Source: Schmidtea nova
Taxonomy: Eukaryota
Reading direction: 5' to 3'
DNA length: 64,000 nucleotides
Assembly (NCBI GenBank): GCA_044892505.1
Contig: CM097884.1
Coordinates: 47,864,001-47,928,000, forward strand
In this document: one piece after another, positions 10,445 through 64,000 of the stretch
Layout: each line of letters starts with the position of its first letter
Position numbering within the stretch: the first letter of the stretch is position 1
Position numbers and translations under genes: made by a program
Notes under the pieces: generated by a model
Told to the model about the DNA's origin: nothing
The model's input: only the letters and a program-made list of their open reading frames with translations
The model's database searches: none

Positions 10445-13400
10445 TGGTGGGTTGTTGATCGTCAATATGACCTTGACGTTGCTATGGCTCTCATCAACAA
10501 CTCAACACATAAAACATTGAAATAACCATCTTGTTGCTCGTCACAATGTAACGTTGGTAATGCAACAAATGGGTGGGTATTCGCAATCAGTGAGCGTCGT
10601 CAATACGAAACTATGATTGACCGAATATCTCCTGGGTCCAAGGGCTACCGATAGAAGGTTTAATGCCAATTTTGTCCCTTCTTCAACGATTTATCTATAA
10701 GCATTCAAAAAATTTTATCGGAAATTCTACATAAATATTTTACATAACTATAAATTTATTATTGTATACAAGTAAATCATTCTAAGCATCAAGACACTAA
10801 CAAAACCTTAAATTTTTGCAAATATTATAATTTATGTTAATTATTAATTAGAGCATTCTAAAATAAAATTTTAATTTACATTTAAAGTAAAAATAAAAAT
10901 AAAAACTTTAATTTCTTAATTTACAAAAAATAATCTGATCTCTAATTTAGGGTTTTTCATTATTTTTAAATCTATGATTAATTTCTTCGGTTTAAATTAC
11001 CGACCAAATTCCATTTGTTTAAGTTTTTATTTGACCTAGAACAAATTCAAATGCCAACTAAATTCTCAAAATATCAGCTCGGAAAATGCCTACGAACCCA
11101 ACAAATCGTGCTCCAATATTCCATAAAAGCCCCAAAAAAAGGTTAATTTATCAACTAAAATTGATAAAATAATTTATTATTCTTATAGCATCCAAACACG
11201 ACAACCGGGAAGAACGGCTCTAAACCACTCTCAATCTGAATCACTCAATTTCAAGAAAACATCCGAATCGACAAACGTTCACTCTCCCATTCAAATTCCT
11301 CTGTCACCTCACTGGAATAATTTGGATATGAACGCATCAGTCTCACATGAATGAACTCACAACTCTATGAACTTTTTGTATTAAAATCCCTCTTCTCTAT
11401 GTGATGTTTAATAAAATAATTTTTTCCTTTTTTTTATTTTAATTAGTCGTTTGATTTTGTTTTCAGTAATATATGTTTTTTCTGAATGTTGTTAAAACCT
11501 TATAACAGATGAAGATAGATGATGTGGCTGAGAAATTTTTCGACAACCAACAAAAAAAATTTAGAGGTAGGATGCCGTAGGTGAAGGTAGTGATGAGTGC
11601 TAGGAAGTATATTATGGGAAGGTAGATTTCTGATTATAGTAATAAGGTGAGGCTTGTGAATAAAAGGTTTTGTGAATTTCGATGGGAATTTTGCATGAAT
11701 GTGAATTAATGATGGTAATATTCAGGGGAATTTGCGAGTTGGTATGTCGTGTTTTATGATGAAATTTTTATATGGCATGTGGTATGTTGTGATGATGGTA
11801 TGATTGTGTATAATATTATTATAGGTTTGACTGATTTCATTGTTACAGTGTTTGTGTGCGGTTATATGGTGGGTGACTGAAAACAATGGAGTGCTTGTGA
11901 GTGTGATTGGACGTGCGATGCCAACTAACTTGTCTGAGTGTAATTTTCGGTATGGTTTGCCTGTGTGTATATAATTGTTGAATGCTATTGAATGATACTG
12001 TGTATGTGTGTATATTGTATTTTATATGTATGTTACTGTATTATCAGTATGGGTGATGCTATTGAATGGTATTGGTGTGATGAATTGCAAATTTGAATTT
12101 GTATGTGGTTTTAGGGGGTATTTTATAAAATAATACATAAAATATTTTCAAAATTTAAATGATAACAATAATTTTTTAATAATTTTTATAAATTTTTAAA
12201 TTTATAATTTTATGAAAATAATAAAATTTCTAAATTTTTATAATATACATTTTCAGATTCGAATTTTTTTAATTTAAGAATATAGATATTAATCGTAAAT
12301 ATTTTCTATGAAATTTCGAAATTTTAGATTTTATAAAATGATAAAATTTTTAATATAATAATAATATTTTCGATTTATAATTTTTATGGGTTTCGATATA
12401 ATTTTTGATTTAAAAATTCTTTGTAATTTTATAAAATGACAAAATATTTTATATAATAACAATATTTTCGATTGGTAATTTTTATGGGGTTCGATATAAT
12501 TTTTGATTTACAAATTCTTAGGAAAATTTTTTGGTTCACAATTTTTCATTATAAAATTTTTGCAATATAATAAAAAGTAAATTTTTATTTTTTGATCAAA
12601 ACGAAATCCACATAATAATAAATTTTTATCCACAAATTTCGCAATCCAAATAAGAATTCAATCTAAAAAGTTTTATATACTGAATAAAAATAAAAGTAAA
12701 ATAAGTTATAAATTCTTCAAAGAATATTTTTCGACATCGAGTAAAGTGAATTTAAGTTTCGTTCGAGCATGAATTTCCCAACCAAAGTGCGCGCGAATTT
12801 TTCGGGACACTTCACTTAGGAACTTCAGGCTCCCGAAAACAAGGTTCACTGGAGAAAATTATTTAGATAATGAATGAGGTTCAATTCAGATCAATCAATA
12901 CTTGTCTTCATAATTCGTTTCATTTCGTGATCATTATATCAACTTTGAGCATTGTTTCAACGATTCTCTTTTCAATATCGGTTGTTAATATTCTGGATCT
13001 TGGATAAGGAGAAAAATCATAGCGAAAGTGAAGGCGAAGGAGGAGTAAAATGTTCTTGCACAAATTAAATTTTTATAATGGAAAAGACATTACTGGAGAA
13101 AATCATCTTTACGTTTATATGTGGTATCAAATTTTAATTATGAATATGTTAGAATTATAAATTCAGATAAACTACATTATTATAAATCAAATATCATAAG
13201 TATAACAATTTGCCCTTGGTCAAGCCACTGTTCCCCAGTTGGGATGAAGTGATCATGGATGTTTGGGCTATTCACCTGGACTCGGAAATATGGGCTGATC
13301 GATTACGAATCGAACCAGCGATCCGCTCAGGCTACTTCCACCCGATCGGCACAAGGCCAGAAACAGGCTTCAGGGGGTACGGAAGCAAAAAAATTATTTG

Positions 13401-14521
13401 TTTATTTAATAACTTTTATTTGGACTACTAAAATTTTTCAATTATGAGAATTTGTGATAAAAAAAAATAAATAAAAAAATTCATTAGATGAAATCCTATA
13501 TAATATTTTCATTATCAATATACAAATAATAAATCCCAAATAATAACAGTAAAAAATAACTAAATGAATCAAATAAAAACGGTGTCGACATGGGATGTCC
13601 AAAGGGCATGATTTTTTGGACCTCCCATACCGATAACGCATATATAATAAGATAAATATAACATAAAAATAAAATGAGGAAATCCTTACGCTCAGTGCGG
13701 CTTCCTAATGGGTTTTTCGGAAACAAAAATTGATTTTCTTGATTTTTTCGGTAAATTCTTGATGGGTCCGTTAACTGCGGCTCTCCTGATTAATTTTTTC
13801 TTTTTCAAATTGAAATTGAAATTCTGTAGATTTAGAAATACCAAAAATCTCAACCAAATAAAAAAAATTTCCACAAAAATTCTGATTATTGCCATTTTGA
13901 TGGCGGTATATATACCATCGATTTTGCGTTACCTTCACTAGTGTAATAAAACAAATTGTTCTAGAATTTTCTTTTTAATTTTTCTAAATTAATTCTAATG
14001 ATTTTCCAAAAATTAAATCCATATTTTTGTGTAATAATTTTTTATAAAACACAATTAATTTATTTTAATTCAAAATTTTTATTTTTGAATCGAAATTTGT
14101 TCGATTTGATTTAATTTACGATATTTCGATCAATATTAGTTCTTTTTATTGTTAATGTGAAATATTTTGATAAAATCACAATTTTCTGCTAAAATTTGGT
14201 TAAATATTTTCTGTACTGAGGTTTTATAACACAATTCTGTTCTTTATGGGCTTTTCAATGGGTTTTCCGCCTATTCTAACTTTCAAACGTTCTTCTTTTG
14301 ACGATTTTTAATTTTTCTCGAGATTTCAGTGTAAGGACTTGCAAATTTACAGCTAGCGCGTACTCTACTGGTTGATGTGTTTTGAGTCCACTTAACCTTT
14401 TGGTGTTTTCCACTTAATCGCTTGGATTTTTAATGGATGTTTGGGTTAAAACTGAATCTTGGGCGCTCTCTACCTATGGGGTTATCGCTTTATTAAAACA
14501 ATTTGTAGTTTTTGCCCAACA
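10445..14521 (-). mobile_element. Giant solo-LTR-like unit A1 (4077 bp)
   Basis: Ends TGGTGGG...CCCAACA, ATTT on both sides (10441-10444, 14522-14525), colinear with 51176-54920 in conserved blocks. Confidence 0.75.
11086..11354 (+). CDS. Putative two-exon 73-aa ORF inside unit A1 (intron 11142-11188)
   Basis: Splicing a 47-nt GT-AG intron gives an open frame MPTNPTNRAPIFHKSPKK...SHE*; a similar arrangement lies at the equivalent offset in A2. Confidence 0.3.
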
Positions 14522-43031: not shown

Positions 43032-43174
43032 NNNNNNNNNNNNNNNNNNNNNNNNNNNNNNNNNNNNNNNNNNNNNNNNNNNNNNNNNNNNNNNNNNNNN
43101 NNNNNNNNNNNNNNNNNNNNNNNNNNNNNNNNNNNNNNNNNNNNNNNNNNNNNNNNNNNNNNNNNNNNNNNNNN
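43032..43174. other. Assembly gap (Ns)
   Basis: Run of N. Confidence 1.
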
Positions 43175-43886
43175 GAATTTTATTATATAGCAATAATAAA
43201 AAGATAAATTTCCGTCTGTATAAAACGCAATATCAGGAAATAAATAATTAATAATGGCTGTGTCCAAATATCGTGTAACTAATAAAAAAATTATTTTACA
43301 AAATTATTTAATACATTATTTGTTTTAATTTCCTTTGCTGTATACAAACGGAAATTTATAAGCAGAGAAATTTTACGTGACGATTAAGAGACTTTTGTGT
43401 GTAAGTTGGGCAGGTGTAAATAGATCCGGATGTATTTATTATCCATTTATTTAGCTGACACGTGCATCTGGCTGCATGTCACCTCGAATGCTTTACGCAT
43501 TTATTTGCATTCGAATTGAAAATGGTGTATACCATTTATATTCGGCTGTAGTTTCAATTAATAAAACAATTCATTTACAAGGAAATAAATTAGATATTCA
43601 AAGTAAAAGATTAGTCATTAGTTATCGAACTCCAGTCAGTAAATCACACCCATTATTTTTTACGAGTATTTTTCATTTAATCATATAAATAAATGGTGTG
43701 AAATTTGATAGAAGAAAGTTTAAATATGAGTAGAAACTTGAAATTCAAATACCCTTATTAAATAATATTATTGTGTAAATAATTTGATTTTTGATTTATA
43801 TTAAGTGTTATTAACTTTTCATTTTTGACTGCTCAAAGTTTTTTTATCACGATTATTTACCTTTTAATTTAATAGTTCATTGAACA

Positions 43887-45331
43887 TACCTTGGCCTACC
43901 AAAAATCTTCAATCAGACAGTTATTTACATATTGCAGTTTATAATGAACGTCTGCCGTACAAATATGAACAGCAATAGGAACAAATATCACCAACACCTT
44001 CAACGTGCTGCATGCACACATGTACTCACGCACACACAGACACACACAGAATATGACTTCTCACACCAGACACAAAACAGTGATATCAGTGAGTCATGTT
44101 AATGAAGGATTATCACTTTCTTAGAATATGACTACTCACACCAGACACACAACAGTGAGTCATGTTGATGAAGGGTTGTCATTTTCTTAGAATATGGCTG
44201 CTTGGAGAGAACTTACATTCTTTCAGAAAGGCATAATTTACGGATGTTACCTTTGTGGAAAAAATCAGAGTGAAACTGCTGCACTGACTGGCCATCCCAA
44301 AGGAACTATTAACTACTTCCTGAGGAAGTACCGCCAGGAAGAGACACATGTCAACAAGCAACGTTCAGGCCACTCTAAACTTCTGAGCATCCATCCACAA
44401 CCGCAGCTGAAACGACTTGTTTCATCGTCGGTTCCCCTGTCCAAGTTAGTATCCACATTTAACACTGACCCTGTGCATGCCAGCATGTCCACCATTCGTC
44501 GCTCATTATATTGTCATGGTTTCTATGGCAGATACTGCGCAAGGTAGCCTTTGATTACAGAAACAATTCGTCCTCGACGCTTGAAGTGGTGCCGGGAGAA
44601 AAGGAGTTTGACAGCAGAACAATGGCGCTCAGTAATTTGAAGTGATGAATCACGTTTCACTCTTTTCAAATCTAATGGACAGCAATTCTGCTGGCATCGT
44701 GTAGGAGAACGATTTCACCCTGACTGCATTCAGCCAACTGTGAAATATGGAAGAGGCTCCATCATGTTTTGGAGTCTTTTATCAGCTCATGAAACTGGCC
44801 CTCTAGTGAAGTGCAGAAATCACATGACGTCAGTGGAATACCGTGTCATTCTGGAAAATGAGCTTGTTCCCTTTCTCCCAGAAATTGAGGGGATTATTTT
44901 CCAACAGGATAATGCACCAATCCATACTTCGCTCATTATAAAGGAATTCTTTCTGCAACACAGCATCAACGTTTTGGATTGGGTTCCACAAAGCCCTGAT
45001 CTGAATCCTATTGAGTTTCTGTGGGACGTCCTTGGTAGACAAGTTCGCAAAAGGACTTTCATTGCCCGTAACGCCTCCGAACTGGAAACGCATCTGCATG
45101 AGGAATGGTCACACATCTCCACTGATTTACTGGCAAAAGTGGTCGATACAATGCCTAAACGAGTACGCCTTTTTATCCACATGAAAGGTTATATAACGAA
45201 GTACTAATTCTCTCAGCACTACAGACATTCAGCATTCGTGTGTGTTTGTGACATTTGTTCCCATTGCTGCTCATTATAAACTGCAATATGTAAATAACTG
45301 CCTGACTGGAGACTTTTGGTAGGCCGGGGTA
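43887..45331 (+). mobile_element. Tc1-family transposon, full length, transposase with stops (44194-45207)
   Basis: ~50-bp TIRs and a TA on the right. Motifs SDESRF, VKYGRGSIMFW, IFQQDNAPIH, WVPQSPDLNPIE (DD34E type); in-frame stops at ~44545 and ~44638. Confidence 0.95.
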
Positions 45332-49447: not shown

Positions 49448-51175
49448 GTTGCAAAAATATAATTTTCTTTAATGTAAATGAAACTTCCGTATCTATAATT
49501 GGAAATATTATTATGCTAAATCAGTTTAGCATTATTAACATCTTTTGTTTAGATCACCTTTGGTCTTTTTCTTTTGTAATTTAGAAATTTTCATTTTTTA
49601 ACCCTTTTGTGAACAATGACATTTATAAACGTCATGCTACTACATGGCTGCAAAATATAAATCATCATTTTCGGATTTTATTTTATAAATAAAAAAATTT
49701 CTTTCAGTCAGCTGTTTTCAAAATTTCTTTGTCTTAAAAAATGCGGAAAATATGGCACATGACATTCTGGAAACAACATTTTTAAAAGTGCGTCCACGAA
49801 AGTGTTAAAGACTATAGATCAGTAAATTTTTTATTGGCACATGAATTTTTGACAGTCCTTTTCAATTGTTATATCAAAATTATATTTATCTTATTTATTA
49901 TATTCTAAACATTCGCACATTTTTTGCCTTCTCAAACGATCCAACAAATCCTACAGCCGTATTTAAATTTACGCATTTAGTCATATATTTTTATATAATA
50001 CAATAAAAAATAAATTTATAATATTAATACATTCTATATTTGATAAGCGAAAGTAATAGATTAAAATATTCATTGTATAAATGTCTTTACAAAATCATAA
50101 ATAATACAAATTTATCTTCTATTTGTACCATTACAATATTCATAAACTAATAAAAGTTAGAATATGAAAAATAAATTTAGAAACTTAAAACTATAGACAT
50201 CTTATTTTATAGAAATGTACAGCGAAAAAATACTGATATTTATCATAAATATATTTAAATATTCTCAAATCTTACATAGTAATTTGCAAATCAGATGCCA
50301 ATGATCAGTTTGTTGATTTTACTGAAAGTTTAAATTGTGATTAATTCAAGAGTTATGACAATCAAAAAGTAAAACATAATTTTCAAATACATTTTGTTAA
50401 TTTATATTTTTATTAATTATGCTAAATTATGTTAAAGTGGCAATATTAATAATTAAGAATATAAATAAACTTTTAAATCATTATGGTATTTTTCAAATAA
50501 ATATAAGAAACCATTTCCTAAAAGATTCTTGCAAAATATTTCGACAGTTTAAATCTAAAAAAGTCATAACAAAAGGGTCTAATAATTAAAATTATTAGTA
50601 AATTTCCAATAGAAGTATGAGTAAATTATCAATAAAAGAAAAAAACTGTATTTGAGTTTTAGAGCAGTCAACTGGTTATGATAGGTTTGGTCTACAATCA
50701 TGTAGGGTTTCTCATTTGAAAGTATCGTGACTGAACAAATAAAGATAAACAACCAAAAAATTTTATTAAACAAAATAGATTGTTGCTGGATGCTGCATTT
50801 CATTAACATGTTTGAACTCCATCTTCTCTTATGTTTTCTTTTTATCTATATGAATGTGCTGCTTGCATTTATTTAAATTCAAATTCTCTAAGTCTCCCTT
50901 GTTATTAAAACAACTGTTTATAAAATGTAGATATTTTTAATTTAATTATATATATTATATAATATTTTTAATTTAATTATATATAAGTTATACATCTTAA
51001 AATTATTAAAAAAAAATATATATATATATATATATGACGAAGGCACTAAAGCATTTTTTATGGTGTTAATAATGAATTCATTAGAGTTTTTTTGGTAATC
51101 GTAATAATTTTTCTGTATTTATATTGTAAATGAGTTTTAATACAAAGTAAAATTAAATACATTATTCGTCATCGT

Positions 51176-54100
51176 TGGTGGGTCGTTGATCGTCAATATG
51201 ACCTTGACGTTACTATGGCTCGCATCAACAACTCAACACATAAAACATTAACATTACCATCTTGTTACCCGTCACTATGTAACGTTGGTACTGTAACAAG
51301 TGGGTGGGTATTCGCAATCAGTGAGCGTCGTCAATACGAAACTATGATTGACCGAATATCTCCTGGGTCCAAGGGCTACCGATAGAAGGTTTATTGCCCA
51401 TTTTGTCCCTTCTTCAATGATTTATCCATAAGCTTTCAATAAAAATTTTATCGGAAATTCAACATAAACACTCTACATAACTATAAATTCATTAATACAT
51501 CCAAATAAATTATTCCGAGCATCAAAAACACTAATATAACCCTATTTTTACCAATATTGCATTTTATGATATTTAATACATAAAATATTATATTTTTATA
51601 GAAAAATTTTTATCCACATTTGAAATTTAAGAAAAATTTTAATTATTACCGTAATTTACTCCAGTTTAGAAATAATAAAAATAAAATTTCCGTTTGTTTA
51701 AAATTTCTAATTTAATCAAAAGGACAAATTTACTCAATTTAAAGTTTATATTAATTTTAAATGTAATTTCCTGAATTTTTCGCTAAATTGATAAATTAAC
51801 TATTACTATAGTTCAGATCAACAAGAAATGGACCTTTCCAGAAACTACGAAACCAGAGGAAAATTCTCCCGCCCCAAACGGGTCAATCCGATTAGAATTC
51901 GAGCTCCTATGAAGCAAAATAGCCCGCTCTACCAACCAAGTAAAATTTCGATTTTTTCAGAATTATAATTTATTTTGATCAATTTTAGAAAATTTCTTGA
52001 AGAGAATATGTGGGAGATGGCCCTTCAAGTACTACAAACCGAAAAAAAAATCCTTGCCGGGGACTCTTACCCCTCAAACTGAATTTTTATCAATAAATCT
52101 TTAGAAAAAAATTTTTTTCGTTTTTACTCTTTTTCATTTGAGTTTTTATTATTTTTATTAAAAATAAACTGTAATGTAAATGGCCTATTTGGCTGGGTAT
52201 ATTAAATTTTATATGGTAGGTTTGAATGATAGAAATTTTTGTATGGTTTTTCTGGATGTATGTTGCCGACTAACATGACTGTGTAGAATCTTCAGTATTG
52301 TTTGCTTGTGTGTATATAACTATTGAATGCTAATAAATGATACGGTGTATGTGTGTATATTGTATTTTAAGTATACGTTGCTTGTGTATTAGTATGGGAA
52401 ATGTTATTGAATGAAATGGATGTAATTTTTTGCAAACAGGGATGCAATATGATTTTTGAGATATCGTGGGGGTATTTATAATATATATATATAAATTATA
52501 TAAAATAATTTTAAAATTAAAATAATAATAATAATTTTTATATTAAAATAATAATAATAATTTTTATAATACAATAAAAAAAATTTCCAATTTTTAAATT
52601 ATAAGTTTCTATAATGCTCTTTATAAATAATTTTATAAAAATATGATCACAAAACTTCCAATTTTTATGATACACATTTCCACAATAATTTATAATTTTA
52701 TGGATATGATAATAAAATTTATAATTTTCATAATATACACTTTTATAATACTTTTTATAAAAATTTTTTAATTTATAATTTTATGAAAGTAATATAATAA
52801 TAAAATTTCCAATTTTTATAATATAAATTTTTATAATACTTTTTATAAGTTTTAAATTTATAATTTTATGAAAATGATATACTAATAAAATTCCCAATTT
52901 TATATTATAAATTTTTATAATGCTTTTTATAATTTTAATAATATAATAATACCATTTTTAATTTTTATAATATGAATTTTTATATTCGAATTTTTATATT
53001 TTAAGTATATATATATATAGTAAAAAGAAAATTTTCCTATAGAATTTTGAAATTTTGGATTTTTTGAAATGATAAAATTTTCATTATAATAATAATATTT
53101 TTGATTTAAAAAATTTTTATGGGTTTCAAATATAAATTTTTAATTATGAATTCTTAGGAATTTTATAAAATAACCAAATCTTTTATAACAATATTCGGAG
53201 AATTTTTGGTTCACAATTATTCATTATAAAAATTTTCCAATATAATAAAAAGTAAATTTTTATTTTTTGAAACGAAATTCACATAATAATAAATTTTTCA
53301 TCCATACATTTCGAAATCTAAATAAGCATTTAATCTAAAAATTTTTTATATGCTAAATAAAAATAAAAAATAAAAATAAGTTATAAATTTTTCAACGAAA
53401 TTTTTTCGACATCGAATAAAGGTAATTTCGGTTTCATTATTATTCCATCGGAGTTGAGCATTAATTCGAACTATTTACTTTTTTAATATCGGTTTTTAAT
53501 ATTCTGGATCTTGGATGAGAAGAAAATTATTGTGAAGGTGAAGGCGAAGGACGAGTAAAATGTTTTTGCATCATCATTTTTCCTAATGGAAAAGACATTG
53601 TTGGAAAGATTTGTCTTTACGTTTTCATGTGGTATTACTTTTCAATATATTAAAATTTATAAATTCGGATAAGCTACATTTATTATAAATAAATATCATT
53701 AATATAACACCTTGCCTTGGGCCAAGCCACTGTTCCCCAGTTGGGATGAAGTGATCTTGGATGGTTAGGCTATTCACCTGATTCGGACAAATGGACTGAT
53801 CGATTTACGTATCGAACCAGCGATCCGCTCAGGCTACTTCCACCCGATCGGCACGAGGCCAGACACAGGCTTCAGAGGGTAAGGAAGTAAAAAAAAAAAT
53901 TATTTAGTTATTTGATAGTTTGAGTTACTAAAATTTTTGTCGGATTATGGGAATTTGTGATATATAAAATAATAATAATAATAAATAAAATAAAACAAAT
54001 TTTTAGATATAATCCTATATTATCAGTAATAAAAGAATACAATAAATGAATTAAATGACATAAAAATAAATAAGAACTGTGTCGACATGGGAGGTCCAAA

Positions 54101-54920
54101 GGGCATGACTCTCGGGCATCCCATGCCGATAACGCATATACAAAATTAAGATAATAATAATAAAAAAAAATAAACCTTACGCTTCGTGTGGTTTCTTCTC
54201 AAAAATTAATAAAGTTTAATAAACAATAATTTTGTAAAATTTCTAGACCGAAAATTTTTCACAAATTCTTTACAAAAATTGTGTTTCTTGCCATTTTGAT
54301 GGCGGTATATATACCGTCGATTTTCGTCACCTTCACTAGTGTAATAAAACAAATTGTTCTAGAACTTTCCATTTAATTTTTCTAAATTAATTCTAATGAT
54401 TTTCCGAAAATTAAATCCATATTTTTGTGTAATAATTTTTTACAAACCACAAATAATTTATTTTAATCCAAAATTTTCATTTTTGAATCGAAATTTGTTC
54501 GATTTAATTTAATTTACGATATTTCAATCAATATTAATTCTTTTTATTGTTAATGTGAAATATTTTGCTAAAATCACAATTTTCGGCTAAAATTCTGTTA
54601 ATTTTTTCTGCATGAAGGTTTTATAACACAATTCCGTTATTTATGGGCATTTTCAATGGGTTTTCCGCCTTATTCTAACTTTTAAACGTTCCTCTTTTGA
54701 TGGTATTTGATTTTTCTCGAGGTTTCAATGTAAGAGCTCTCAGACTCACAGCTAGCGCGTTCTCTACTGGCTGATGTGTTTTGAGTTTACTTCACCTTTT
54801 GTTGTTTTTCACTTAATCGTTTCGATTTTTAATGGATATTTGGGTTAAAACTGAATCTTGCGCGCTCTCTACCTATGGGGTTATCGCTCCGTTAAAACAA
54901 TTTGTGGTTTTTGCCCAACA
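51176..54920 (-). mobile_element. Giant LTR-like unit A2 (3745 bp), probable terminal repeat of the element extending beyond 64000
   Basis: TGGTGGG...CCCAACA ends, colinear with A1, but flanks differ (TCGT vs TAAA); directly abuts a multi-ORF cassette. Confidence 0.72.
51828..52104 (+). CDS. Putative two-exon 75-aa basic ORF inside unit A2 (intron 51940-51988)
   Basis: Removing a 49-nt GT-AG intron gives MDLSRNYETRGKFSRPKRVNPIRIRAPMKQNSP...EFLSINL*. Confidence 0.3.
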
Positions 54921-55255
54921 TAAAATACTCGGGGGCCCGCAAAAATTGCGTCCCGCAATTTCTCAGAGGGGTTAAGAACCAAGACTAATCAAAGGTCAAA
55001 AGGTTGTACATTATACACGAGCTACTTGGTCGTGATCATGCCATTCGCGACAATAAAAATAAAAAGTGATAAAAATTAATAAAAAGTTAATACGTATACA
55101 TTAATATGAGTCTACATCGACTCGCAAGCAAAAAAAAAATTAAATATAATGTAATATATGTGCCTACAGCGGCTAATCAAAGTTCAATATGAGTCTACAA
55201 CGACTCGGATAAAAGTTTTATCAAGTTTATTAAGTTTGTTAAATTATCAAATTTA

Positions 55256-56050
55256 TTATTGAATTGGTTGGATCTTCGACTGGAATAGTTTGAATGACTC
55301 GGTATTGATCAACTGTTTCTTGTCATCTTCTCTTCTGGATTGTTTGGAGATCATGTTGTTCATCATTCTTGTGGCGGTCAAGCCTAACCATATTATACCA
55401 CAGATTCCGATTATTAGCAAAAAGTTAAGGATGATCAGACAGATATCGAGAATTCGTTTGGATGATAGGAGGGATATTCTGCACTTGTCTCGGTCTTGAT
55501 TGTTATCCGGTTTCGATATTTCGTTTATGTGATCGTGGATTTTATTCCTAGATGCCAGGTTTTCGAAATAAGCCTTTCTCAGTTGTTGTGCCGTTTGGTT
55601 TCCTACTTCGGAAATCTGCTGGGATAGGTTATGATGAATTTGCCGGATTTGTTTCAGACATTTCGGACTTGATGAATTTATCGTTAGCTGATCGATTAAC
55701 TTGCCTACATTCATTTTAAGTTCTTTGGTGAGACGTTTTATTGCGTCACGGGTTTCTCGATCACTATCAAAAATATCCTCGAATGTATCTCTGATCACTA
55801 AATCGGCTAATATTATCCTTGCTATTCTCTTGAGACCTGAAATTTCATCATTTTGATTGAAAAGGGTATTCTGAATTTCGACTTTGGCTTGCTCAATCTT
55901 TTCGGATAGTTGTTTGTTGTTAGAGATTTCAAATGGTTCTTTATTATCTGGTTGATTTGGGTTTAATTGGCTTGATTTCTGGGTTTCTTCGAGATGACAA
56001 TAAATTGTTGTGATCATGGCGATTAAGAAAACTTCTCGGTACGATTTCAT
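55256..56050 (-). CDS. 264-aa predicted type I membrane protein (signal peptide, coiled coil, TM)
   Basis: Hydrophobic N-terminus VFLIAMITTIYC, helical ectodomain, TM ILDICLIILNFLLIIGICGIIWLGL, basic tail; intact and intronless. Confidence 0.8.
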   Translation of the reverse strand: MKSYREVFLIAMITTIYCHLEETQKSSQLNPNQPDNKEPFEISNNKQLSEKIEQAKVEIQNTLFNQNDEISGLKRIARIILADLVIRDTFEDIFDSDRETRDAIKRLTKELKMNVGKLIDQLTINSSSPKCLKQIRQIHHNLSQQISEVGNQTAQQLRKAYFENLASRNKIHDHINEISKPDNNQDRDKCRISLLSSKRILDICLIILNFLLIIGICGIIWLGLTATRMMNNMISKQSRREDDKKQLINTESFKLFQSKIQPIQ

Positions 56051-56216
56051 TGTTGATTTTTGTGTTTCTAATAGAAAGAAATTGAATAATGACGATAGAC
56101 AATAATTTTTTTCTATTTACAAGGGCGTTACGAATTTTACAGAGGGTTATGATTTGGATGATGATGAAATATTGTTAAAGATGAGAATGAGTTGTCGAAA
56201 GGGGGATCGAATCGTA

Positions 56217-57041
56217 TTATTGTTTGTAGAAGTAATTCATCTGCACCGAGGTTGTAGATGTCTCAGGATTAGGCTGTTCTGGAACTGGATCTTCAAATAT
56301 TGATCTTAGGAAATTTTCTGACGGGTTGTTGTCCTCATGGGTAATTCGTTTGATTGTATTCGACTGGATTTTCGCTTTCTCTAATTTTATTTTCTCTAAT
56401 CCAATTGATGCAACAATGCTAAGGATCATTATGACTGCGAAAAGACTGATGCCTTGTAGAACGACTGTGATGGCTGCTTCTCGGTCTCTGACGTCTTCGT
56501 TTGTTGATCCTTGTTTAGGGATAATCTCTTTCTGCTTTTCGGATGATATCAATTGTTTTATAATTCTCTCGGTCTGATGAAGTTGCATTTTCAGTTTTTG
56601 ATTTAACTCTTCTGTAAAACTCGATCTTTCTTCGTTAACTTCATCTTTATTATTTAGAGATTTTTCTATTAGCTTGCTCAATTTCTTCAGTTCGGTTGTC
56701 AACTGTTTGAAAGATGATTGGTTTTCTAGTTGTTTCTTTAGTTGAAGATTGTTTCTTTTGGTTAAGGAGATTTGTAGTTGGATTAATTGTTGAGTTTCAT
56801 TTCTCAATTGTTTAAGGATGGTGATTGAATCTTCTCTGGATTTAGGACATTGTTGACATTGTAGTTGGATTTGCTGACACTCCTCATTTCTGATGCTACA
56901 AATTTCTTGATAGCTTACGCAAATGCTATCGGATCTTCTAAATGGATGGCTTGCTTGACATTGACTCAATGCTTCTTCGCTTCGGCAGTTTGTAATTATA
57001 AGTATCATGATGGTTGTTGTGATCCTCATTAGATTGCTCAT
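56217..57041 (-). CDS. 274-aa predicted type I membrane protein (signal peptide, Cys-rich region, coiled coil, TM)
   Basis: ITTTIMILIITNC leader, a cluster of Cys, long heptad region, TM AAITVVLQGISLFAVIMILSIVASIGL. Confidence 0.8.
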   Translation of the reverse strand: MSNLMRITTTIMILIITNCRSEEALSQCQASHPFRRSDSICVSYQEICSIRNEECQQIQLQCQQCPKSREDSITILKQLRNETQQLIQLQISLTKRNNLQLKKQLENQSSFKQLTTELKKLSKLIEKSLNNKDEVNEERSSFTEELNQKLKMQLHQTERIIKQLISSEKQKEIIPKQGSTNEDVRDREAAITVVLQGISLFAVIMILSIVASIGLEKIKLEKAKIQSNTIKRITHEDNNPSENFLRSIFEDPVPEQPNPETSTTSVQMNYFYKQ

Positions 57042-57136
57042 TTTCTATAGATTTATAGATTCAAATTGGTTTAATGATTTTTCAGATTTTCTCTTTTATA
57101 TCTTTACAGGGATATTTACATGAGTTTATATATATT

Positions 57137-57712
57137 TTATTCTTTCGTCTCTTCATTTAACTTTAACGGACTTTCTGGCTTCCAGTTACCCATTTTTACA
57201 ATCTCGTCTGCTTCTTTTCGCCTTTGTTCTTTGAGGACGTAATTTTCTGCCGTTTTGATTTCTACAGCTTTCTTTGCTTTGAACGTATCAAATTTTGCTT
57301 CTATGATTTCACTTTTCAACTTTATTATCTGTTTCTCTCTTTTTATAATCTTTTTCTGTTTGTTCTTCAATGATCGTTGTAATGACTCGATCTTAATTCT
57401 CCTTTTATTATCAGTGTTCTGTTCACTGCTTATTTCCCTTTTGAGTCTGTCAATCTCTTGCTTCTGTCTGTCGCAATATTTTTGAGTGAGACCATTTTGT
57501 TGGCGAAATAGATAATTTTCTCGCTTGATTATTTCCATCGTCTCGCACTTTTGTTCCATTTGTGCGATATATTTTCTCTCTTTGCTCATTACTTCCTTCA
57601 ATTGGTCTATTTGGTCTTGATAATATTGCTCTGTTGCTCTTTTCCATTTTTTGAATCTTTCTTTTGATATCGTTTGTTGTTCTGGTTCTGATCTTTGCTT
57701 CAATAGTCTCAT
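57137..57712 (-). CDS. 191-aa coiled-coil protein
   Basis: Intact K/E/Q-rich ORF in the same orientation as its neighbours. Confidence 0.7.
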   Translation of the reverse strand: MRLLKQRSEPEQQTISKERFKKWKRATEQYYQDQIDQLKEVMSKERKYIAQMEQKCETMEIIKRENYLFRQQNGLTQKYCDRQKQEIDRLKREISSEQNTDNKRRIKIESLQRSLKNKQKKIIKREKQIIKLKSEIIEAKFDTFKAKKAVEIKTAENYVLKEQRRKEADEIVKMGNWKPESPLKLNEETKE

Positions 57713-58002
57713 TTTCTATAATTTGAATTTTCATAACTCTTTTCTACAGTTTTATTAATTTTGTTTTTGTTTTTATCATTTTTATCATTTTTATCATTTT
57801 TATCATTTTCTAATTTTTATTTGTTTTTCATTTTTTTTTTTTTTTTTTTTTTTCTAATTTTTATTGAATTTTTATTTTTTCTGCTTTTTATTTAATTTTT
57901 TGGATATATTTTACAACTTTTTCTTTTTACATTTCTTTACAACGTTTTTCTTTTTACACTACATTTCAATTTCTTTTTACACTTTACATTCACTTTTATT
58001 AT

Positions 58003-59550
58003 TTATACAAACGTCTCTTCAATTTCTCCGAACCCTTCATCTTCGATTTGAGGATTTTCTTGCTCCAAATGTACAGGTTGTATTGGTGTTGGATATAGTG
58101 GCCATAGAATTATTGGAGGTTGATTTTGTAGGCTCTGAACTCTTTCTCGCAAAGTTCTTGAGATTTCTATCTCTTCATCTAGCAAATATGTCATATAATC
58201 GAGTTCTTCACTCAGCTGTTCCTTTTCTATCTCGAGCTCTCTCGTATTTTCCATATTTTTCAACCTTTCAATCTCTCTTTCATAGTTTTGGCGGTTTTCT
58301 TCCAAACTTTGGATAGCCATTTCAATCTCATACTGCGATTGCTGGATCGCTTTCTCACATTCGGCCTTTGTTTCTTCTATCTGCCGTCGCTGGTGTTGAA
58401 TGACAATATCTTTATGAGTATTTGTTCCTCGATATCCGTTGACTTCACGGTTTGCAATAGTCAATTCTCTTGTCAGTTCTTCAATACTTCGATCATCCAT
58501 ATTCTTCTGTTGATCATATTGCCTATTTGCAAATTCCAGATATTTGATACGAGCTTCTTGATTCCTGGTAAATTTCATTCTCCTTTGATTCCATTCGGTT
58601 TTTAATTGAATTTGCCGTCTTAATTCTTTGTTTTCTATCTCTTGCTTTTCTGCATTTTCACACAATTCTGCTTCATTTATTGACATCAGCTTCTTTGGGA
58701 ATTCTCGTAGTTTGTCTCGAGTTCTTTTCCAGGTCTTTTTCCATGTTCTTGCTTGTTCTATTAGCCACTTTATTTGATGCTTTATACTTCTTTCTCTGAA
58801 CTGTCCGCTCGTTTTCAACTGGAATATTTCTTTTCTGAGTTTCTCCGTTTCCTCATGACGTATGTCTGCATACCAATAACATTCCTCTTTCAGAGCCTCG
58901 ATTTGAACGTCTCTCCGTCTTAGTAATTCTTCCTGTAGCATTTTTCTGTGTCGAGCCATTTCCAATAAATCTTGGTGTTCTTGTTTCCATTTTCTAGCCT
59001 CTGCTTTAACTTTTCTAATGATCTTTTCTTGTTCGCTTTCAGGCTGGATTTCTCTCGTTCTCGTTTTAGGTTTCTTTTGAGGTTGTCCTCTCAAGGCAAA
59101 TGCTTCATCTCGACACTTTTCCCATTTCTTTTTCATGGCTTCATATCTATTTCTTTCACTTTCTAGTTGCTGCTGATAGAATCTTATGGAGTTGTCATAC
59201 CTTGTTTCGGTATCTCTTTTATAAGTTTCGAGCTCATCTTTTCTCAATCTTGCTTGATTTTTTAACGGTACCAACTTTCGTTGTTCGTGCTCGAGTTTTC
59301 TCTCCATTTCTTTGTACTCTCGTTTATAATTTTCTAGTTCAGCTTCGATATGCGTCTTATCGTTTATTATCTTTCGCAGTTCCTCGTTTTCCTCTTTTAT
59401 TTTGTTGATCTCTTGGGTTCGTTTTTCAATCATTTTAACGTTCTCTTGGATGGCTTCCATTCTTTGTTCATAATTTCTCATTTGATTTAGTTGCTCTTGT
59501 CTTTTGGCCATCTCCTGATCTAGGATGTCTATCAATTGTTGTATATTCAT
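58003..59550 (-). CDS. 515-aa long coiled-coil protein
   Basis: Long intact E/R/K/Q-rich ORF with a Pro-rich acidic tail. Confidence 0.8.
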   Translation of the reverse strand: MNIQQLIDILDQEMAKRQEQLNQMRNYEQRMEAIQENVKMIEKRTQEINKIKEENEELRKIINDKTHIEAELENYKREYKEMERKLEHEQRKLVPLKNQARLRKDELETYKRDTETRYDNSIRFYQQQLESERNRYEAMKKKWEKCRDEAFALRGQPQKKPKTRTREIQPESEQEKIIRKVKAEARKWKQEHQDLLEMARHRKMLQEELLRRRDVQIEALKEECYWYADIRHEETEKLRKEIFQLKTSGQFRERSIKHQIKWLIEQARTWKKTWKRTRDKLREFPKKLMSINEAELCENAEKQEIENKELRRQIQLKTEWNQRRMKFTRNQEARIKYLEFANRQYDQQKNMDDRSIEELTRELTIANREVNGYRGTNTHKDIVIQHQRRQIEETKAECEKAIQQSQYEIEMAIQSLEENRQNYEREIERLKNMENTRELEIEKEQLSEELDYMTYLLDEEIEISRTLRERVQSLQNQPPIILWPLYPTPIQPVHLEQENPQIEDEGFGEIEETFV

Positions 59551-59687
59551 TCTGAAATAATAATAACATGGGTAATTTCCTTTTGTTTATACATTTTTTG
59601 TTGCTCATGCTTATAAAATAATACTTGTATACATCGATTGAATTTAAAATCTTTACAATTTATTTACAAAGTTGTTTGATTGGATTA

Positions 59688-60115
59688 TTGATCGGCATAA
59701 CGGAGATATAATAAATTTCTGTTTACACTTTCTGTTAACAAAGCTTGTTCGTTTTTCCATTGTGCATAGGCTTGATTCAACATCCTGCTTAATAATTCAC
59801 ATTGCGTTTTCCATGATAACTCTTGTGTCATTGTCTGCTGATAAACCATCGGAGCTGATATTGATTGAGTCTGGCTATTTGTTTGTTGTTGATTTAATAC
59901 GAATGTCGTTGAATTGGGTTCATGGTTTCATCAAATAGTGGAATTTCGACTTGGTATATCAGGTTTCTATCGTCAATTGTTGGATTTTGCGTTTCATTTT
60001 CGATTACTGGGGTTTGTAGTGACCCTTCTCTTTCTCGTATATTGGTATCTCCTGGAAACGTTGGAACAGATGTTTGATAACTTTGACTCTCGTTGTTCGG
60101 ATTCATTTCTGTCAA
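59688..60115 (-). CDS. Small ORF 59894-60115 with a probable frameshifted continuation to 59688
   Basis: A second frame (PNSTTFVLNQQQ...YLRYADQ*) stays open from ~59920 to 59688. Confidence 0.45.
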
Positions 60116-60256
60116 TAATTACACAATATTATCATTTGTTTTTCCCAGTTTTGAGGTATTCATTTTTTGGATTTTTAAATTTTTATTATACAAATATATT
60201 CTACTTTTATAATACAATATAATTTTATACACTATATACACTGTTCCTTCCACTGG

Positions 60257-63200
60257 TTACTCTAACAACTTGCGTTTCGACGACACTCTGATGTTCTCAT
60301 CTGGCTCGTCGGTTAATATGACTTTTATGTCTTCTTGGGTGACTTTTGAACCATTATGTGTTACTATCTGACATACGAGTGTTCTAAACATTTCTTGTGA
60401 TACTTTCTTTTTGTAAACACAGATTTTATATTTTGTTTCTCGTTTTAATCCATTTATTCGGATTTCTCCTCCTTCTGCTCGTTGACATTTGACTGGATTA
60501 TCTCCTTTAATTTGCAATTTGACGCTACTCCAACATGCTTCTTCATTATCTGCTCCTTGTATTAATACTTGTACTGGTTTTCTCTTGTCATCCGCTTCCG
60601 TTCCTTTCAATGCTGACAGCATCAATATCAGTAATATTATGTCTTTTATTCGAGTTTTATGTAGACATGCTGTTCGTTTTTCATAATTTGAAGTTTCTTG
60701 CTTGGGTTCATCACTTTTGTTCCCAATTTCCTCGTTATTGCTTTTTCCATCATCTTTCTCGTCTTTGTCATTGTTTCTGTTGATACTTTCATTGTCATCT
60801 TTCTTTGTTTTGTTGTTGTTATTCTCTTCATCTTCATCGTCAGGCTCATTGTGATCATTAGCACCACCCTCGGTTCTGATTAAAATGTCGTCCTCGACAT
60901 TTATTAATTTTATTATTTCCTCATATCTTTTAGCTATTTCATCTGCTTCGGCTTTTATATTTGCTCTCTTGGTTATTTCATCTTTGGCGTTGTTCCAGCT
61001 TCGGTGAATTCTGCTTTCTTTTATATTTTCTTTCCATATGATGACTTGCTGATATAATTCATGTCTTTTAGATCCAATTCTTTCTTTTTCTTTTTTGTTG
61101 TTCGTAAACCTGAAATCAGGTCTTTGCAGCAATGCTTTAATCGTTTTACACATTTTCCATTTTCTTTTCATGGCTCTTTTCATTATCATATTTTCACCGT
61201 CTTCAAATCTGTCATTGACATTTATCACTCCTTCGTGCGTAACTGGATGTAACCATTTAATCATTTTTGCTGTTGTTTCGTCGGCATCTTTGTTCACTGC
61301 ATTTACTAATGGATTTGGATCTGAACTGAGCACTTCAATATCTTCTTCTGTAGCATTTGACATAATATATTTGACTATTTGATGGTTATTTGCTTGCACT
61401 GCATAAGATAACACCGTTTCATTTTTATCATCTCTTTCTTTAAAACTTGATCCGGTTCTCATCAGTTCTGCTATGAGTTTCTTGGATCCTCCTTTTTCAA
61501 TTGCTATCATCAAGGGTGTTTGATCTTTCCAGTTTTTTGTGTTGGTATGTTGCTTGCACTTTTCCATGAGTTTTATGATTTCAAATATTCTCTGTTCATT
61601 CCCACTTTTTATTGCGTGATATAATGGTATCTCATCTTTAAAACTGGCAATTGTAAAAAGTATTGGTAATCTTTCTTTTATGGTATTCATCGCTTCTGTC
61701 GTTTCATTTCCTTTGGCATATTCCTCAACCATTAAGCTTACTCCTCCCAATATTTCAAATAGATTTTTACTTTTTGACCATTCTGGCATAATTTCTTTGG
61801 TAATCTCAATGATCAATTCCATCTTTTTGCGGTGCTCCATTTTTACATCGTCAACTATCTTAGGTTGTTCAGATATTGTTGTTGGCTGATTTACTTTTCT
61901 GCTCACAGTTAATATACGGTGTAGCCAATCGTCATTTTTATTCTCTCGAAACATACATACTTGTCCTTTTCTGGTCATTTCTTGATTTGATTGTTCTGTC
62001 GCTGTTTCTCTTGTGCAATCCTCTTCAATTTGGTGTTTCAACTTCATCGTATTCAAATCAATTACAGATCCTTTTAACAGTTTTGGTATCAAGTCTGTTC
62101 CAATAATACATGATGCACCCAGTTGTTTTATTACTGTCAAATAAGTTGATATTTTTACTTTTCTGTATTCGATGTCTGTCCATATCTTTCCAACGATATT
62201 GACAGATTCTTTGCTGCATGTTATTACGTCTACTGATGTTTTCTCGATGCATAACCGTAACATTTCTGGTATCATATCGATATCTATTGCTGATATATTT
62301 GCGCCAGTATCAATCATCGCGTCTACTTTTACGCCATTAACTTCGATGTTAATTGTAAGTATTGGTCCAGCTGGAGTTTTCATCATTGCAATTATCGTTG
62401 TTTCGGGATTATCTTCACCTCTTGCTTTTCTGGTCAACTCGCTTCCTGAAATTTTATCAACAGTTAATTTATTACTTGTTTCGATTTGTATCGGGGTTAT
62501 TCCGATTTCTATATCATCATTCAGTGATTCTCCATCATATTTCAAGTGAAATGGTAAGTTAAATGGTAATCTCTCTTTTATCTCTTTGATCTTTGTTGTT
62601 AATGGTACATTCATCTTTATTTCTTCTAAACTCGGAAACTGAATTTTCAATCTGCACATCTGTGGATCATCGCTTGTTTGTTCCAGTTGTTTCCATTTTC
62701 TTATGATGTCATTAAATTGTGTTGAATACCAAGGGCATAAACGTCTGCATTTCTCGATTTCTCTCACTATCAATCTCATGTTTGATATATTTGCACTATT
62801 TTTTATAACCCATTTTAGTAATTCAGTTGTTGTTTCACATTGATTTCCTGCACTCTTGCTTAGGTTACTGATTAATCGTTCGGTCTTTGACGTTTCTGTT
62901 TGTCTTGATCTTTCGAGCTTCGCTGATTTCCTTTTTTCTTCCGACTTTTGATTCATTTTCGTCATTTCTTCTATGGTAATTGTTAACAATCTTTGTGCCA
63001 CTTCTTCTAATTTGATTGTCGTAGATTCATCCCATTTTTCGTCCATGTTACATATGTCATCATCGCTTCTTCTTTCTCTTCTTTTTCGGTTATATTTCTC
63101 CACAAACTTCTTCTTTTCTTCTCCCTCCATATCTTTTACTGAAAATTCATATATATTTCCCTTTCTTTCCATTTCAACGTCTGATAATTCGGTTATCATT

Positions 63201-63319
63201 TCATTTACTTTTTCTTCGATATTCTGTTGTAGTTGCATATTCATTGTTACTACTTCTTTTTCTTCTTCCTGTAAATTATCTTCCGAGTTTGCACTGATAA
63301 ATTTCTGATTCTCCTCCAT
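60257..63319 (-). CDS. 1020-aa multidomain protein: coiled coil, ubiquitin-like, retropepsin-like aspartic protease, ankyrin repeats, acidic linker, hydrophobic segment, FN3-like
   Basis: Protease VNGVKVDAMIDTGANISAI...IIGTDL; ankyrin WKDQTPLMIAIEKG and KNETVLSYAVQANNHQIVKYI; hydrophobic IILLILMLSAL; INGLKRETKYKICV. The UBL and FN3 calls are tentative. Confidence 0.85.
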   Translation of the reverse strand: MEENQKFISANSEDNLQEEEKEVVTMNMQLQQNIEEKVNEMITELSDVEMERKGNIYEFSVKDMEGEEKKKFVEKYNRKRRERRSDDDICNMDEKWDESTTIKLEEVAQRLLTITIEEMTKMNQKSEEKRKSAKLERSRQTETSKTERLISNLSKSAGNQCETTTELLKWVIKNSANISNMRLIVREIEKCRRLCPWYSTQFNDIIRKWKQLEQTSDDPQMCRLKIQFPSLEEIKMNVPLTTKIKEIKERLPFNLPFHLKYDGESLNDDIEIGITPIQIETSNKLTVDKISGSELTRKARGEDNPETTIIAMMKTPAGPILTINIEVNGVKVDAMIDTGANISAIDIDMIPEMLRLCIEKTSVDVITCSKESVNIVGKIWTDIEYRKVKISTYLTVIKQLGASCIIGTDLIPKLLKGSVIDLNTMKLKHQIEEDCTRETATEQSNQEMTRKGQVCMFRENKNDDWLHRILTVSRKVNQPTTISEQPKIVDDVKMEHRKKMELIIEITKEIMPEWSKSKNLFEILGGVSLMVEEYAKGNETTEAMNTIKERLPILFTIASFKDEIPLYHAIKSGNEQRIFEIIKLMEKCKQHTNTKNWKDQTPLMIAIEKGGSKKLIAELMRTGSSFKERDDKNETVLSYAVQANNHQIVKYIMSNATEEDIEVLSSDPNPLVNAVNKDADETTAKMIKWLHPVTHEGVINVNDRFEDGENMIMKRAMKRKWKMCKTIKALLQRPDFRFTNNKKEKERIGSKRHELYQQVIIWKENIKESRIHRSWNNAKDEITKRANIKAEADEIAKRYEEIIKLINVEDDILIRTEGGANDHNEPDDEDEENNNNKTKKDDNESINRNNDKDEKDDGKSNNEEIGNKSDEPKQETSNYEKRTACLHKTRIKDIILLILMLSALKGTEADDKRKPVQVLIQGADNEEACWSSVKLQIKGDNPVKCQRAEGGEIRINGLKRETKYKICVYKKKVSQEMFRTLVCQIVTHNGSKVTQEDIKVILTDEPDENIRVSSKRKLLE

Positions 63320-64000
63320 TTCTTTCTGAAAATCGGCTACAAACTTTCAAATGTTATGGGTTTTACTTCTTTATTTATCAGCTTTATTTCTTTGTAATTT
63401 CCTTTCGTCGTTTTTTAATAGATTTGACTCTTTATCTTTCGACTTTACGAACTTGGTTGGTTTGGTAGTATTATCAATTTGCGTTTAATATCGATTGCTG
63501 ATCTCTCGTTTATCTTCAATTGGATCTTCTTTGATTTATTTTCTTTTACTTCTTTCCTTTTCAATTAGACTTCTTTTTCTTCTTTTCTTCTATATATACC
63601 TCTTCAATAACTGATTGATTTGACTATCTCTTGGCTTGGCTTTGATCTGTTGGACAATCTAAATAAAAATATCGCTTCTTCATCGACGCCATTTACCCCC
63701 CTTTTATTCTGAGCTCAGATTTTAAATTATCTATATCTCGTAATAATTATCTATATGGTCGTATCAATTATCTATACCCTGATAATAATAATAATAATAA
63801 TAACAATAACAATAACTATACTAATACTATAATAACAGTAGGATCCTGTCGACTCGTTTTCATATTCATCTCGGCATTCGAGGTTAAAAAAAAATATCTT
63901 GTTCGTTATCTATTCATGGCCATTATTTTATTTCCTAAGTATTTCTCAATGTCTTTTATCTGCTCTTTTTAACGGTTTGTATTACTACACCTTAAGTATT

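What the first reader, a model, noticed from the sequence alone, without database searches (positions are those of the whole stretch)
51176..64000. Candidate undescribed giant LTR-type element: 3.7-kb terminal repeat plus a virus-like multi-gene cassette
A2 has the family ends but no TSD. It is followed by at least six intronless, largely intact minus-strand ORFs with short AT-rich spacers: a protease-containing polyprotein, coiled-coil proteins and two type I membrane proteins. No RT, RNase H, integrase or zinc knuckle appears in the 9 kb visible. The simplest model (inference) is a very large Gypsy-like or endogenous-virus-like element whose solo LTRs are A1, B and D, with pol and the second repeat beyond 64000. 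Caveat: no canonical polypurine tract or tRNA primer site at 54921.
Basis: partly seen in the sequence, partly recalled or inferred. Interest (0 to 1): 0.9.

Follow-up and report, generated by a model that had tools for sequence, protein, structure and literature searches.

The report
Gene-carrying satellite of giant Burro retrotransposon
This is a 21-kb jumping element that has lost its own copying enzymes and apparently borrows them from a related giant retrotransposon, yet outnumbers it and keeps its own set of conserved genes, several resembling cell-death and immune-signalling regulators.

Summary
The repeat and ORF cassette are real. The predicted second repeat lies 17.3 kb on (99.84% identical) with the predicted TCGT duplication: a 21,049-bp LTR element read on the minus strand, with a 22-nt tRNA-Pro primer site. 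It has no gag core, env, RT, RNase H or integrase, so 'pol beyond 64000' is wrong. It is one copy of a large non-autonomous family (1,244 and 1,665 exact probe hits) sharing LTR ends, leader and primer site with an autonomous element of about 28-31 kb (227 RT probe hits) whose domain order matches planarian Burro. None of 20 sampled cassette copies had pol; none of 20 RT copies had the cassette. Cassette ORFs are under purifying selection (pN/pS 0.12-0.44). Sister copies add TRAF-like and BIR-RING (IAP-like) genes, and one window ORF is an intronless relative of an intron-bearing host membrane gene (TNF-receptor likeness is only a lead). LTR subtypes interleave between helper and satellite, as co-packaging would give. 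The kind of element is known; a cargo-bearing satellite of it was not found in the papers I could search, but the primary Burro paper was unavailable. Expression is untested.

The parts
51172..51175 (.). Target-site duplication TCGT (left copy; right copy at window-equivalent 72225-72228)
51176..54920 (-). 3' LTR (A2), 3,745 bp, TG...CA
54921..55255 (-). 3' untranslated region shared with the helper (about 93% over 350 bp); no polypurine tract; a C-run ends 10 nt before the LTR in 44 of 46 matches
55256..56050 (-). ORF264: signal-like N-terminus, helical ectodomain, one TM (aa 203-221); no family; pN/pS 0.44
56217..57041 (-). ORF274: signal-like N-terminus, six-cysteine domain, coiled-coil stalk, one TM (aa 193-211), tail; intronless relative of an intron-bearing host gene; TNF-receptor likeness is a lead only; pN/pS 0.18
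57137..57712 (-). ORF191: charged coiled-coil-like protein, no family above cut-off; pN/pS 0.15
58003..59550 (-). ORF515: long coiled-coil-like protein, no Pfam hit; pN/pS 0.12
59703..60106 (-). Broken remnant of ORF211 (frameshifted, truncated); this copy lacks the TRAF-like, IAP-like and 482-aa TM genes found at this place in sister copies
60257..63319 (-). ORF1020: collinear in-frame relic of the helper polyprotein (Gag tail, post-MATH segment, protease with DTG, ankyrin region, start of fn3 part), 29-57% aa identity to the helper; pN/pS 0.16-0.30
63320..64000 (-). 3' end of the 5' leader. It continues beyond the window (window-equivalent coordinates, L001): 21-bp tandem repeat 64196-64511; 160-aa RING-finger ORF (PF13920) 65536-66018, also in the helper leader; primer-binding site 68448-68469, 22 nt complementary to host tRNA-Pro(TGG) plus CCA, 10 nt inside the LTR; 5' LTR 68480-72224, 99.84% identical to A2
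10445..14521 (-). A1: diverged solo LTR of the same family with a 4-bp TSD (72-90% identity in blocks)

Best explanation
A recently inserted copy of a non-autonomous satellite family derived from a Burro-type giant Gypsy element. Shown: LTRs, 4-bp TSD, tRNA-Pro primer site, absence of capsid/env/RT/RH/IN, a separate pol-bearing element with the same ends, high copy number, and purifying selection on the cassette. Inferred: its LTR-driven RNA is packaged by the helper's Gag and copied and integrated by the helper's RT and integrase; template switching in mixed particles keeps its LTRs and leader in step with the helper's; each cassette ORF is read from a processed mRNA using the acceptor-like AG just before its start codon (cis-splicing from a common leader, or spliced-leader trans-splicing). 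Least certain: the cargo (RING, ankyrin, IAP-like, TRAF-like, membrane proteins) acts on host cell-death or TNF-type signalling so that cells making the element survive, which would explain why a parasite of a parasite keeps about 8-12 kb of genes intact.
For: Closed element with TSD and 99.84% LTRs. No pol in this copy. 0 of 20 sampled cassette copies had gag core, env, RT, RH or IN hits in 20 kb (17 of 20 traced through to the leader or 5' LTR); 16 of 20 RT copies ran IN-ankyrin-fn3-UTR-LTR with no cassette and the other 4 were interrupted. 40 of 40 further satellite-type protease copies did not continue into RT, 39 running on into the ankyrin part. Exact 22-mer counts: ORF264 1,244, satellite protease 1,665, helper RT 227, reversed controls 0. 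Primer site and 3' junction are the same in helper and satellite. In a tree of 3' UTR plus LTR start, both main clades hold helper and satellite rows, and helper monophyly is rejected (p-AU 1.4e-5, 18 vs 8 rows). Three satellite copies carry a RING region 92-95% identical to the helper's, whereas protease and ankyrin DNA are only 75% and 67% identical. pN/pS 0.12-0.44 for all ten cassette ORFs. TRAF-like and BIR+RING genes by Pfam and PDB sequence hits. YAG within 20 nt before the start codon in 6 of 6 window ORFs, against 39% of 208 other ATGs and 32% of spacer positions.
Against: No RNA, particle or protein evidence was obtained. On the 3' UTR alone helper monophyly is not rejected (p-AU 0.19), and only 8 satellite rows entered the longer tree. 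Exact-probe counts miss diverged copies, so the ratio is rough. All sampled copies come from the first 100 listed places, on one contig. pN/pS used only open-frame copies, which are related, so the pairs are not independent; ORF264 is only weakly constrained (0.44, with 6 of 25 full-length hits carrying a stop). TRAF and IAP genes are missing from 9 of 20 sampled copies and from the window copy, so they are not needed in cis. The first ATG of the TRAF-like ORF has no acceptor-like AG (its second ATG does). No polypurine tract in helper or satellite, so plus-strand priming is unexplained.
Confidence: 0.8

Rival explanations
1. A true two-component system: the ancestral Burro split into a replication component (gag-env-pol) and an accessory component (cassette), and the helper benefits from or needs the satellite's proteins.
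For: Clean separation of pol and cassette in all samples. A BIR motif is reported among the motifs of Burro1, but here BIR was found only in the satellite. Deep coding divergence with exchanged cis elements implies long coexistence. All cargo is under purifying selection.
Against: Nothing tests benefit to the helper. The helper keeps its own MATH, ankyrin, fn3-TM and RING parts. Selection on cargo can arise from benefit to the satellite alone. Cargo content varies among copies.
Confidence: 0.25
2. An ordinary recent internal-deletion derivative of an autonomous element whose ORFs are passive baggage.
For: ORF1020 is plainly a deleted polyprotein; modular loss of TRAF, IAP and TM482 continues among copies.
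Against: No parent carrying both pol and cassette among 20+20+40 sampled copies or in two other env-bearing families examined. ORF1020 is only 29-57% identical in protein to the helper yet open across several deletion joints and constrained. The synonymous rate exceeds the replacement rate in every ORF.
Confidence: 0.08
3. The cassette is an endogenized piece of a DNA or RNA virus that landed between Burro LTRs.
For: Compact intronless ORFs with IAP-, TRAF- and receptor-like genes recall large DNA virus accessory genes (recalled, not tested). ORF264, ORF191, ORF515 and ORF211 have no identified relatives.
Against: No viral replication or capsid domain in the cassette. The only relatives found for ORF274 are two unnamed proteins and an intron-bearing gene in this genome. 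The largest ORF comes from Burro itself.
Confidence: 0.07

Closest known systems
Burro / GYPSM1 giant Gypsy elements of dugesiid planarians (PMC6431247 section 7, read whole)
   Same: The helper has Gag, CCHC knuckles, MATH, a mononegavirus-type fusion (env) region between gag and protease, PR-RT-RH-IN and ankyrin repeats, multi-kb LTRs and about 28-31 kb length. The window element shares its LTR ends, leader, primer site, and protease/ankyrin ancestry.
   Different: The window element is 21 kb, lacks gag core, env, RT, RH and IN, and carries a separate run of sense-strand ORFs not found in the helper. The section read mentions accessory ORFs but no non-autonomous partner. No direct sequence comparison with Burro1-4 was possible.
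Non-autonomous LTR elements (LARDs, TRIMs, helper-dependent pairs; recalled, with search listings)
   Same: Intact LTRs and primer site, no pol, dependence on an autonomous partner, higher copy number than the partner.
   Different: Those are usually described as non-coding or keeping only gag (recalled); this one keeps five to ten constrained ORFs but no capsid.
Replication-defective, helper-dependent retroviruses carrying captured host signalling genes (recalled)
   Same: Replication genes replaced by intronless host-derived cargo, moved by a helper with matching cis signals.
   Different: Here the system is endogenous, multi-gene, present in over a thousand genomic copies and long maintained; no effect on host cells has been shown.

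Membership tests
LTR retroelement (structure) | Two long direct repeats with TG...CA ends and a short TSD | tested here: met
   3,745-bp LTRs, 99.84% identical, 4-bp TSD; 4-bp TSDs also at 3 of 3 other full copies checked and at A1
LTR retroelement (structure) | tRNA primer-binding site inside the 5' LTR | tested here: met
   22-nt match to host tRNA-Pro(TGG)+CCA, offset 10 nt in 24 of 25 matches
LTR retroelement (structure) | Polypurine tract before the 3' LTR | tested here: not met
   No purine run next to the LTR; best 12-mer is 10/12 purine and 392 nt away; the helper has the same junction
Autonomous Ty3/Gypsy (window element) | gag and PR-RT-RH-IN | tested here: not met
   Only the protease is present
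Autonomous Ty3/Gypsy (helper, L012-L015 and L018-L020) | gag and PR-RT-RH-IN in that order | tested here: met
   Pfam hits in that order
Burro (helper) | Env-like fusion region between gag and protease, with MATH, CCHC knuckles and ankyrin | tested here: met
   PF24664 E 9.7e-71, MATH, zf-CCHC, Ank_2 against the description
Burro (helper) | SUMO/ubiquitin-like, BCL2-like and dUTPase-like segments | tested here: inconclusive
   No Pfam hit at E 0.05; the paper found some of these with profile-profile searches, which I did not run
Burro (helper) | Sequence relationship to Burro1-4 / GYPSM1 | not testable with these tools
   No Burro sequence was returned by any search; primary paper not held
Burro (window element) | Over 30 kb with the full Gag-Env-Pol polyprotein | tested here: not met
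   21,049 bp, polyprotein reduced to 1,020 aa; filed as Burro-derived, not as a Burro
LARD/TRIM (definition recalled) | Non-coding internal region | tested here: not met
   Five intact window ORFs plus RING160, pN/pS 0.12-0.44
TNF receptor superfamily (ORF274) | Cysteine-rich domain with TNFR fold in a type I membrane protein | tested here: inconclusive
   Topology fits; Atlas neighbours are Grindelwald/TACI/Fn14/BAFF-R clusters but at 0.76-0.83, a level a third of shuffled proteins reach; model shows hairpin then two helices, the order given for Grindelwald, but six cysteines rather than eight; structure and profile searches gave nothing significant
TRAF (sister-copy ORF, not in window copy) | RING, zinc fingers and C-terminal MATH domain | tested here: met
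   Pfam (MATH and one RING model over cut-off, zinc finger under it); best PDB hits are TRAF1/5/2/3, E to 3e-25
IAP (sister-copy ORF, not in window copy) | BIR domain with C-terminal RING | tested here: met
   PF00653 E 5.8e-16 and PF13920 E 1.1e-10

The most novel reading that the evidence does not exclude
A naturally segmented, env-bearing retroelement in an animal: one component carries gag-env-pol, the other a polycistronic accessory segment expressed by splicing or trans-splicing that includes a captured receptor-TRAF-IAP signalling module, the two being co-packaged, exchanging cis elements and depending on each other.
Probability: 0.2. Interest if true: 0.85.

Novelty: new variant of a known kind. 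Interest (0 to 1): 0.6.

Why it matters
Non-autonomous LTR elements are usually treated as non-coding hitch-hikers. This one outnumbers its helper several-fold, occupies on the order of tens of megabases (inferred from over 1,200 probe hits for a 17-25-kb element) and keeps many genes under purifying selection, some plainly related to apoptosis and TNF-pathway regulators. It separates Burro's proposed host-tinkering genes from its replication genes, so that idea (raised in PMC6431247) can be tested by knocking down cargo alone. It also suggests that part of the reported TRAF/MATH expansion in planarians (PMC6109357, passages seen) may be element-borne, which would matter for annotation; I did not test that.

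Tried and rejected
Word-indexed protein searches with ORF1020, TM482 and the IAP-like ORF found nothing; these are insensitive, since two of the three have clear Pfam domains. ESM Atlas gave only unnamed clusters for ORF264. ORF264 and ORF274 are not detectably related. Fold searches for the ORF274 cysteine domain: no significant match; TACI and BCMA appear among Foldseek rows at E 4-9 mixed with LDL-receptor repeats, which is not evidence. Complex prediction of the TRAF-like MATH domain with the ORF274 tail returned no verdict. No RNA holder was listed among sequencing runs and no reads were laid, so expression is open. The 3' junction folds no better than shuffles (z 0.45). Three RT hits lay 30-35 kb from a cassette hit in matching orientation; two were examined and are nested insertions into LTRs, not single elements; the third was not read. 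Two other env-bearing Gypsy families (RT 53-54% identical to the helper) had neither the cassette nor these LTRs in the 18-20 kb read. Earlier findings of this scan: none returned. Literature searches for a non-autonomous or cargo-bearing Burro partner listed nothing on it, judged from titles and abstract openings.
Full report
Observation. A2 spans 51176-54920 (3,745 bp) and aligns in blocks (72-90%) with A1 at 10445-14521. A search of the own genome with its end scored 40 of 3,123 candidates, all 98-100% identical, most in pairs 16-27 kb apart, including an identical stretch 17.3 kb downstream of A2. That second repeat (L001 5480-9224, window-equivalent 68480-72224) is 99.84% identical to A2 and is followed by TCGT, matching TCGT at 51172-51175. 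The element is therefore 21,049 bp with a 4-bp TSD. Three other full copies, chosen as close matches and so biased towards young ones, have LTR pairs 99.86-99.89% identical and 4-bp TSDs; A1 is a solo LTR with one too.

Orientation and cis signals. All long ORFs are on the minus strand. On that strand, 10 nt after the 5' LTR, 22 nt are exactly complementary to the 3' end of a tRNA-Pro(TGG) gene of this genome plus CCA; the exact 22-mer occurs 538 times, and the 10-nt offset holds in 24 of 25 matches in fetched loci. There is no polypurine tract before the 3' LTR; a G/C-rich motif ends 10 nt from the LTR in 44 of 46 matches, and it is the same in pol-bearing copies, so it is a family trait, not damage.

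Coding content. The window holds intact ORFs of 1020, 515, 191, 274 and 264 aa and a broken remnant of a 211-aa ORF. The 4.5 kb beyond the window add only a 160-aa RING ORF and simple repeats. There is no gag core, env, RT, RNase H or integrase. Sister copies insert further ORFs after ORF1020: a 482-aa single-TM protein, a TRAF-like protein (RING, zinc fingers, MATH; best PDB hits TRAF1/5/2/3) and a BIR+RING IAP-like protein.

The helper. Two of the first five other regions fetched contained a different interior between related LTRs: Gag, CCHC knuckles, MATH, a Monjiviricetes-type fusion region, PR, RT, RH, IN, ankyrin and an fn3/TM part, about 28-31 kb in all. This is the domain order given for planarian Burro in PMC6431247, whose section 7 I read whole; on that basis the host is probably a dugesiid planarian (inference). 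ORF1020 is a collinear relic of that polyprotein: Gag tail 44%, post-MATH segment 43%, protease region 57%, ankyrin region 47%, fn3 start 29% aa identity, with the protease DTG motif kept in 60 of 61 matches.

Two separate families. Exact 22-mer counts were 1,244 (ORF264), 1,665 (satellite protease) and 227 (helper RT), with 0 for reversed controls. I took every fifth of the first 100 listed places for ORF264 and for RT (all on contig C1). All 20 cassette copies had ORF1020, 515, 191, 274 and 264, and none had gag core, env, RT, RH or IN hits in 20 kb; 17 were traced to the leader or 5' LTR and 3 were interrupted upstream. TRAF+IAP were present in 11, TM482 in 2, neither in 7. Of 20 RT copies, 16 ran IN-ankyrin-fn3-UTR-LTR, 4 were interrupted, and none had the cassette in the 10 kb read. 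To look for a closer pol-bearing parent I read 40 satellite-type protease hits picked by eye for lacking an ORF264-probe partner: none continued into RT, and 39 ran into the ankyrin part. Two of three cases of RT lying 30-35 kb from a cassette proved to be nested insertions. Two other env-bearing Gypsy families lacked the cassette and these LTRs.

Selection. Pairwise pN/pS over open-frame copies (4-25 per ORF; copies with stops or split hits set aside and counted in the output): ORF264 0.44, ORF274 0.18, ORF191 0.15, ORF515 0.12, ORF1020 parts 0.30/0.25/0.16, RING160 0.29, TM482 0.27, ORF211 0.17, TRAF 0.13, IAP 0.21; the helper's ankyrin and fn3 parts gave 0.18 and 0.34. Variants shared by several copies were more synonymous than singletons in most ORFs, as expected if selection acts on transposing source copies; ORF264 showed little difference and TM482 the reverse, on few copies. 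Copies are related, so these values are descriptive.

Exchange of cis regions. The 3' UTR is about 93% and the leader 83-87% identical between the window copy and the helper, against 65-75% for coding DNA. A tree of 3' UTR plus LTR start (18 helper, 8 satellite rows) has two starred clades, each with both kinds; helper monophyly is rejected (p-AU 1.4e-5). With the 330-bp UTR alone (18 vs 28 rows) the same pattern appears but is not rejected (p-AU 0.19). Satellite copies L033, L043 and L044 carry the helper-type RING region at 92-95%. Template switching in shared particles is the simplest reading (inference); gene conversion is not excluded.

Cargo origin and expression. ORF274's only database relatives were two unnamed proteins (E 2e-8 and 1e-7). 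One of them found a locus in this genome at 67% over its first 52 residues, split by short GT-AG introns and sharing the cysteine domain, so ORF274 looks like an old intronless capture of a host membrane-protein gene. Likeness to single-domain TNF receptors rests on weak Atlas neighbours, topology and secondary-structure order and was not confirmed by structure or profile searches. A YAG lies within 20 nt before the start codon in 6 of 6 window ORFs, in RING160, TM482 and IAP, and before the second but not the first ATG of the TRAF-like ORF; background is 39% of 208 other ATGs and 32% of spacer positions. That points to processed subgenomic mRNAs. Trans-spliced operons with spacers near 100 bp are described in another flatworm (PMC8629364, passages), but no RNA data were obtained here.

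Comparison and novelty. The element works like a helper-dependent LTR element and descends from a Burro-type element, but fails the Burro size and polyprotein tests itself and is not a non-coding LARD/TRIM. Papers seen: PMC6431247 (section 7 whole), passages of PMC11410931, PMC8532177, PMC6109357, PMC8024323 and PMC8629364, and listings only. None of what I saw describes a cargo-bearing non-autonomous Burro partner, but the primary Burro paper and its supplements were not available and may cover such derivatives. Verdict: new variant of a known kind, interest 0.6.

Noticed in passing
G000:C1:459,609,000-459,657,000 (L021-L023): A long tandem array with a 308-bp period containing tRNA-Pro(TGG) genes; the tRNA 3' 22-mer occurs 899 times in the genome. 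It is the tRNA that matches this family's primer site.
   Followed up: partly
window 54921-54940 and window-equivalent 68448-68479: Both ends of the interior have a 10-nt spacer between the LTR and a G/C run (primer site at one end, a non-purine motif at the other), hinting at symmetrical cDNA extensions and non-canonical plus-strand priming.
   Followed up: partly
L134-L137 (G000:C1:5,985,000 and C2:246,277,000): Two further Gypsy families with env before protease in frames of about 3,400 aa, each followed by an unknown 331-483-aa ORF; many copies with long open frames.
   Followed up: partly
L016-L020, L091, L093, L034-L035, L038-L039, L050-L051: Family members are often nested in each other's LTRs or lie in tandem separated by LTR sequence.
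   Followed up: partly
L012 175-726 and L014 6975-7526: One LTR subtype of the helper contains a 184-aa open frame with no Pfam hit above cut-off.
   Followed up: no
window 34300-35032: A stretch ending in the same terminal motifs as A2 but without significant overall alignment; possibly a distant Burro-type LTR end.
   Followed up: partly
window 3373-4206, 7459-8121, 41244-43232, 44641-45204: Other transposon-like frames: a protease-like piece, an integrase/chromodomain-like piece, a long frame crossing a masked stretch, and a DDE-transposase-like piece (the last two judged by eye).
   Followed up: no
L001 1196-1511 (window-equivalent 64196-64511): A 21-bp tandem repeat of variable copy number in the leader, open on the antisense strand, shared with the helper.
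   Followed up: no
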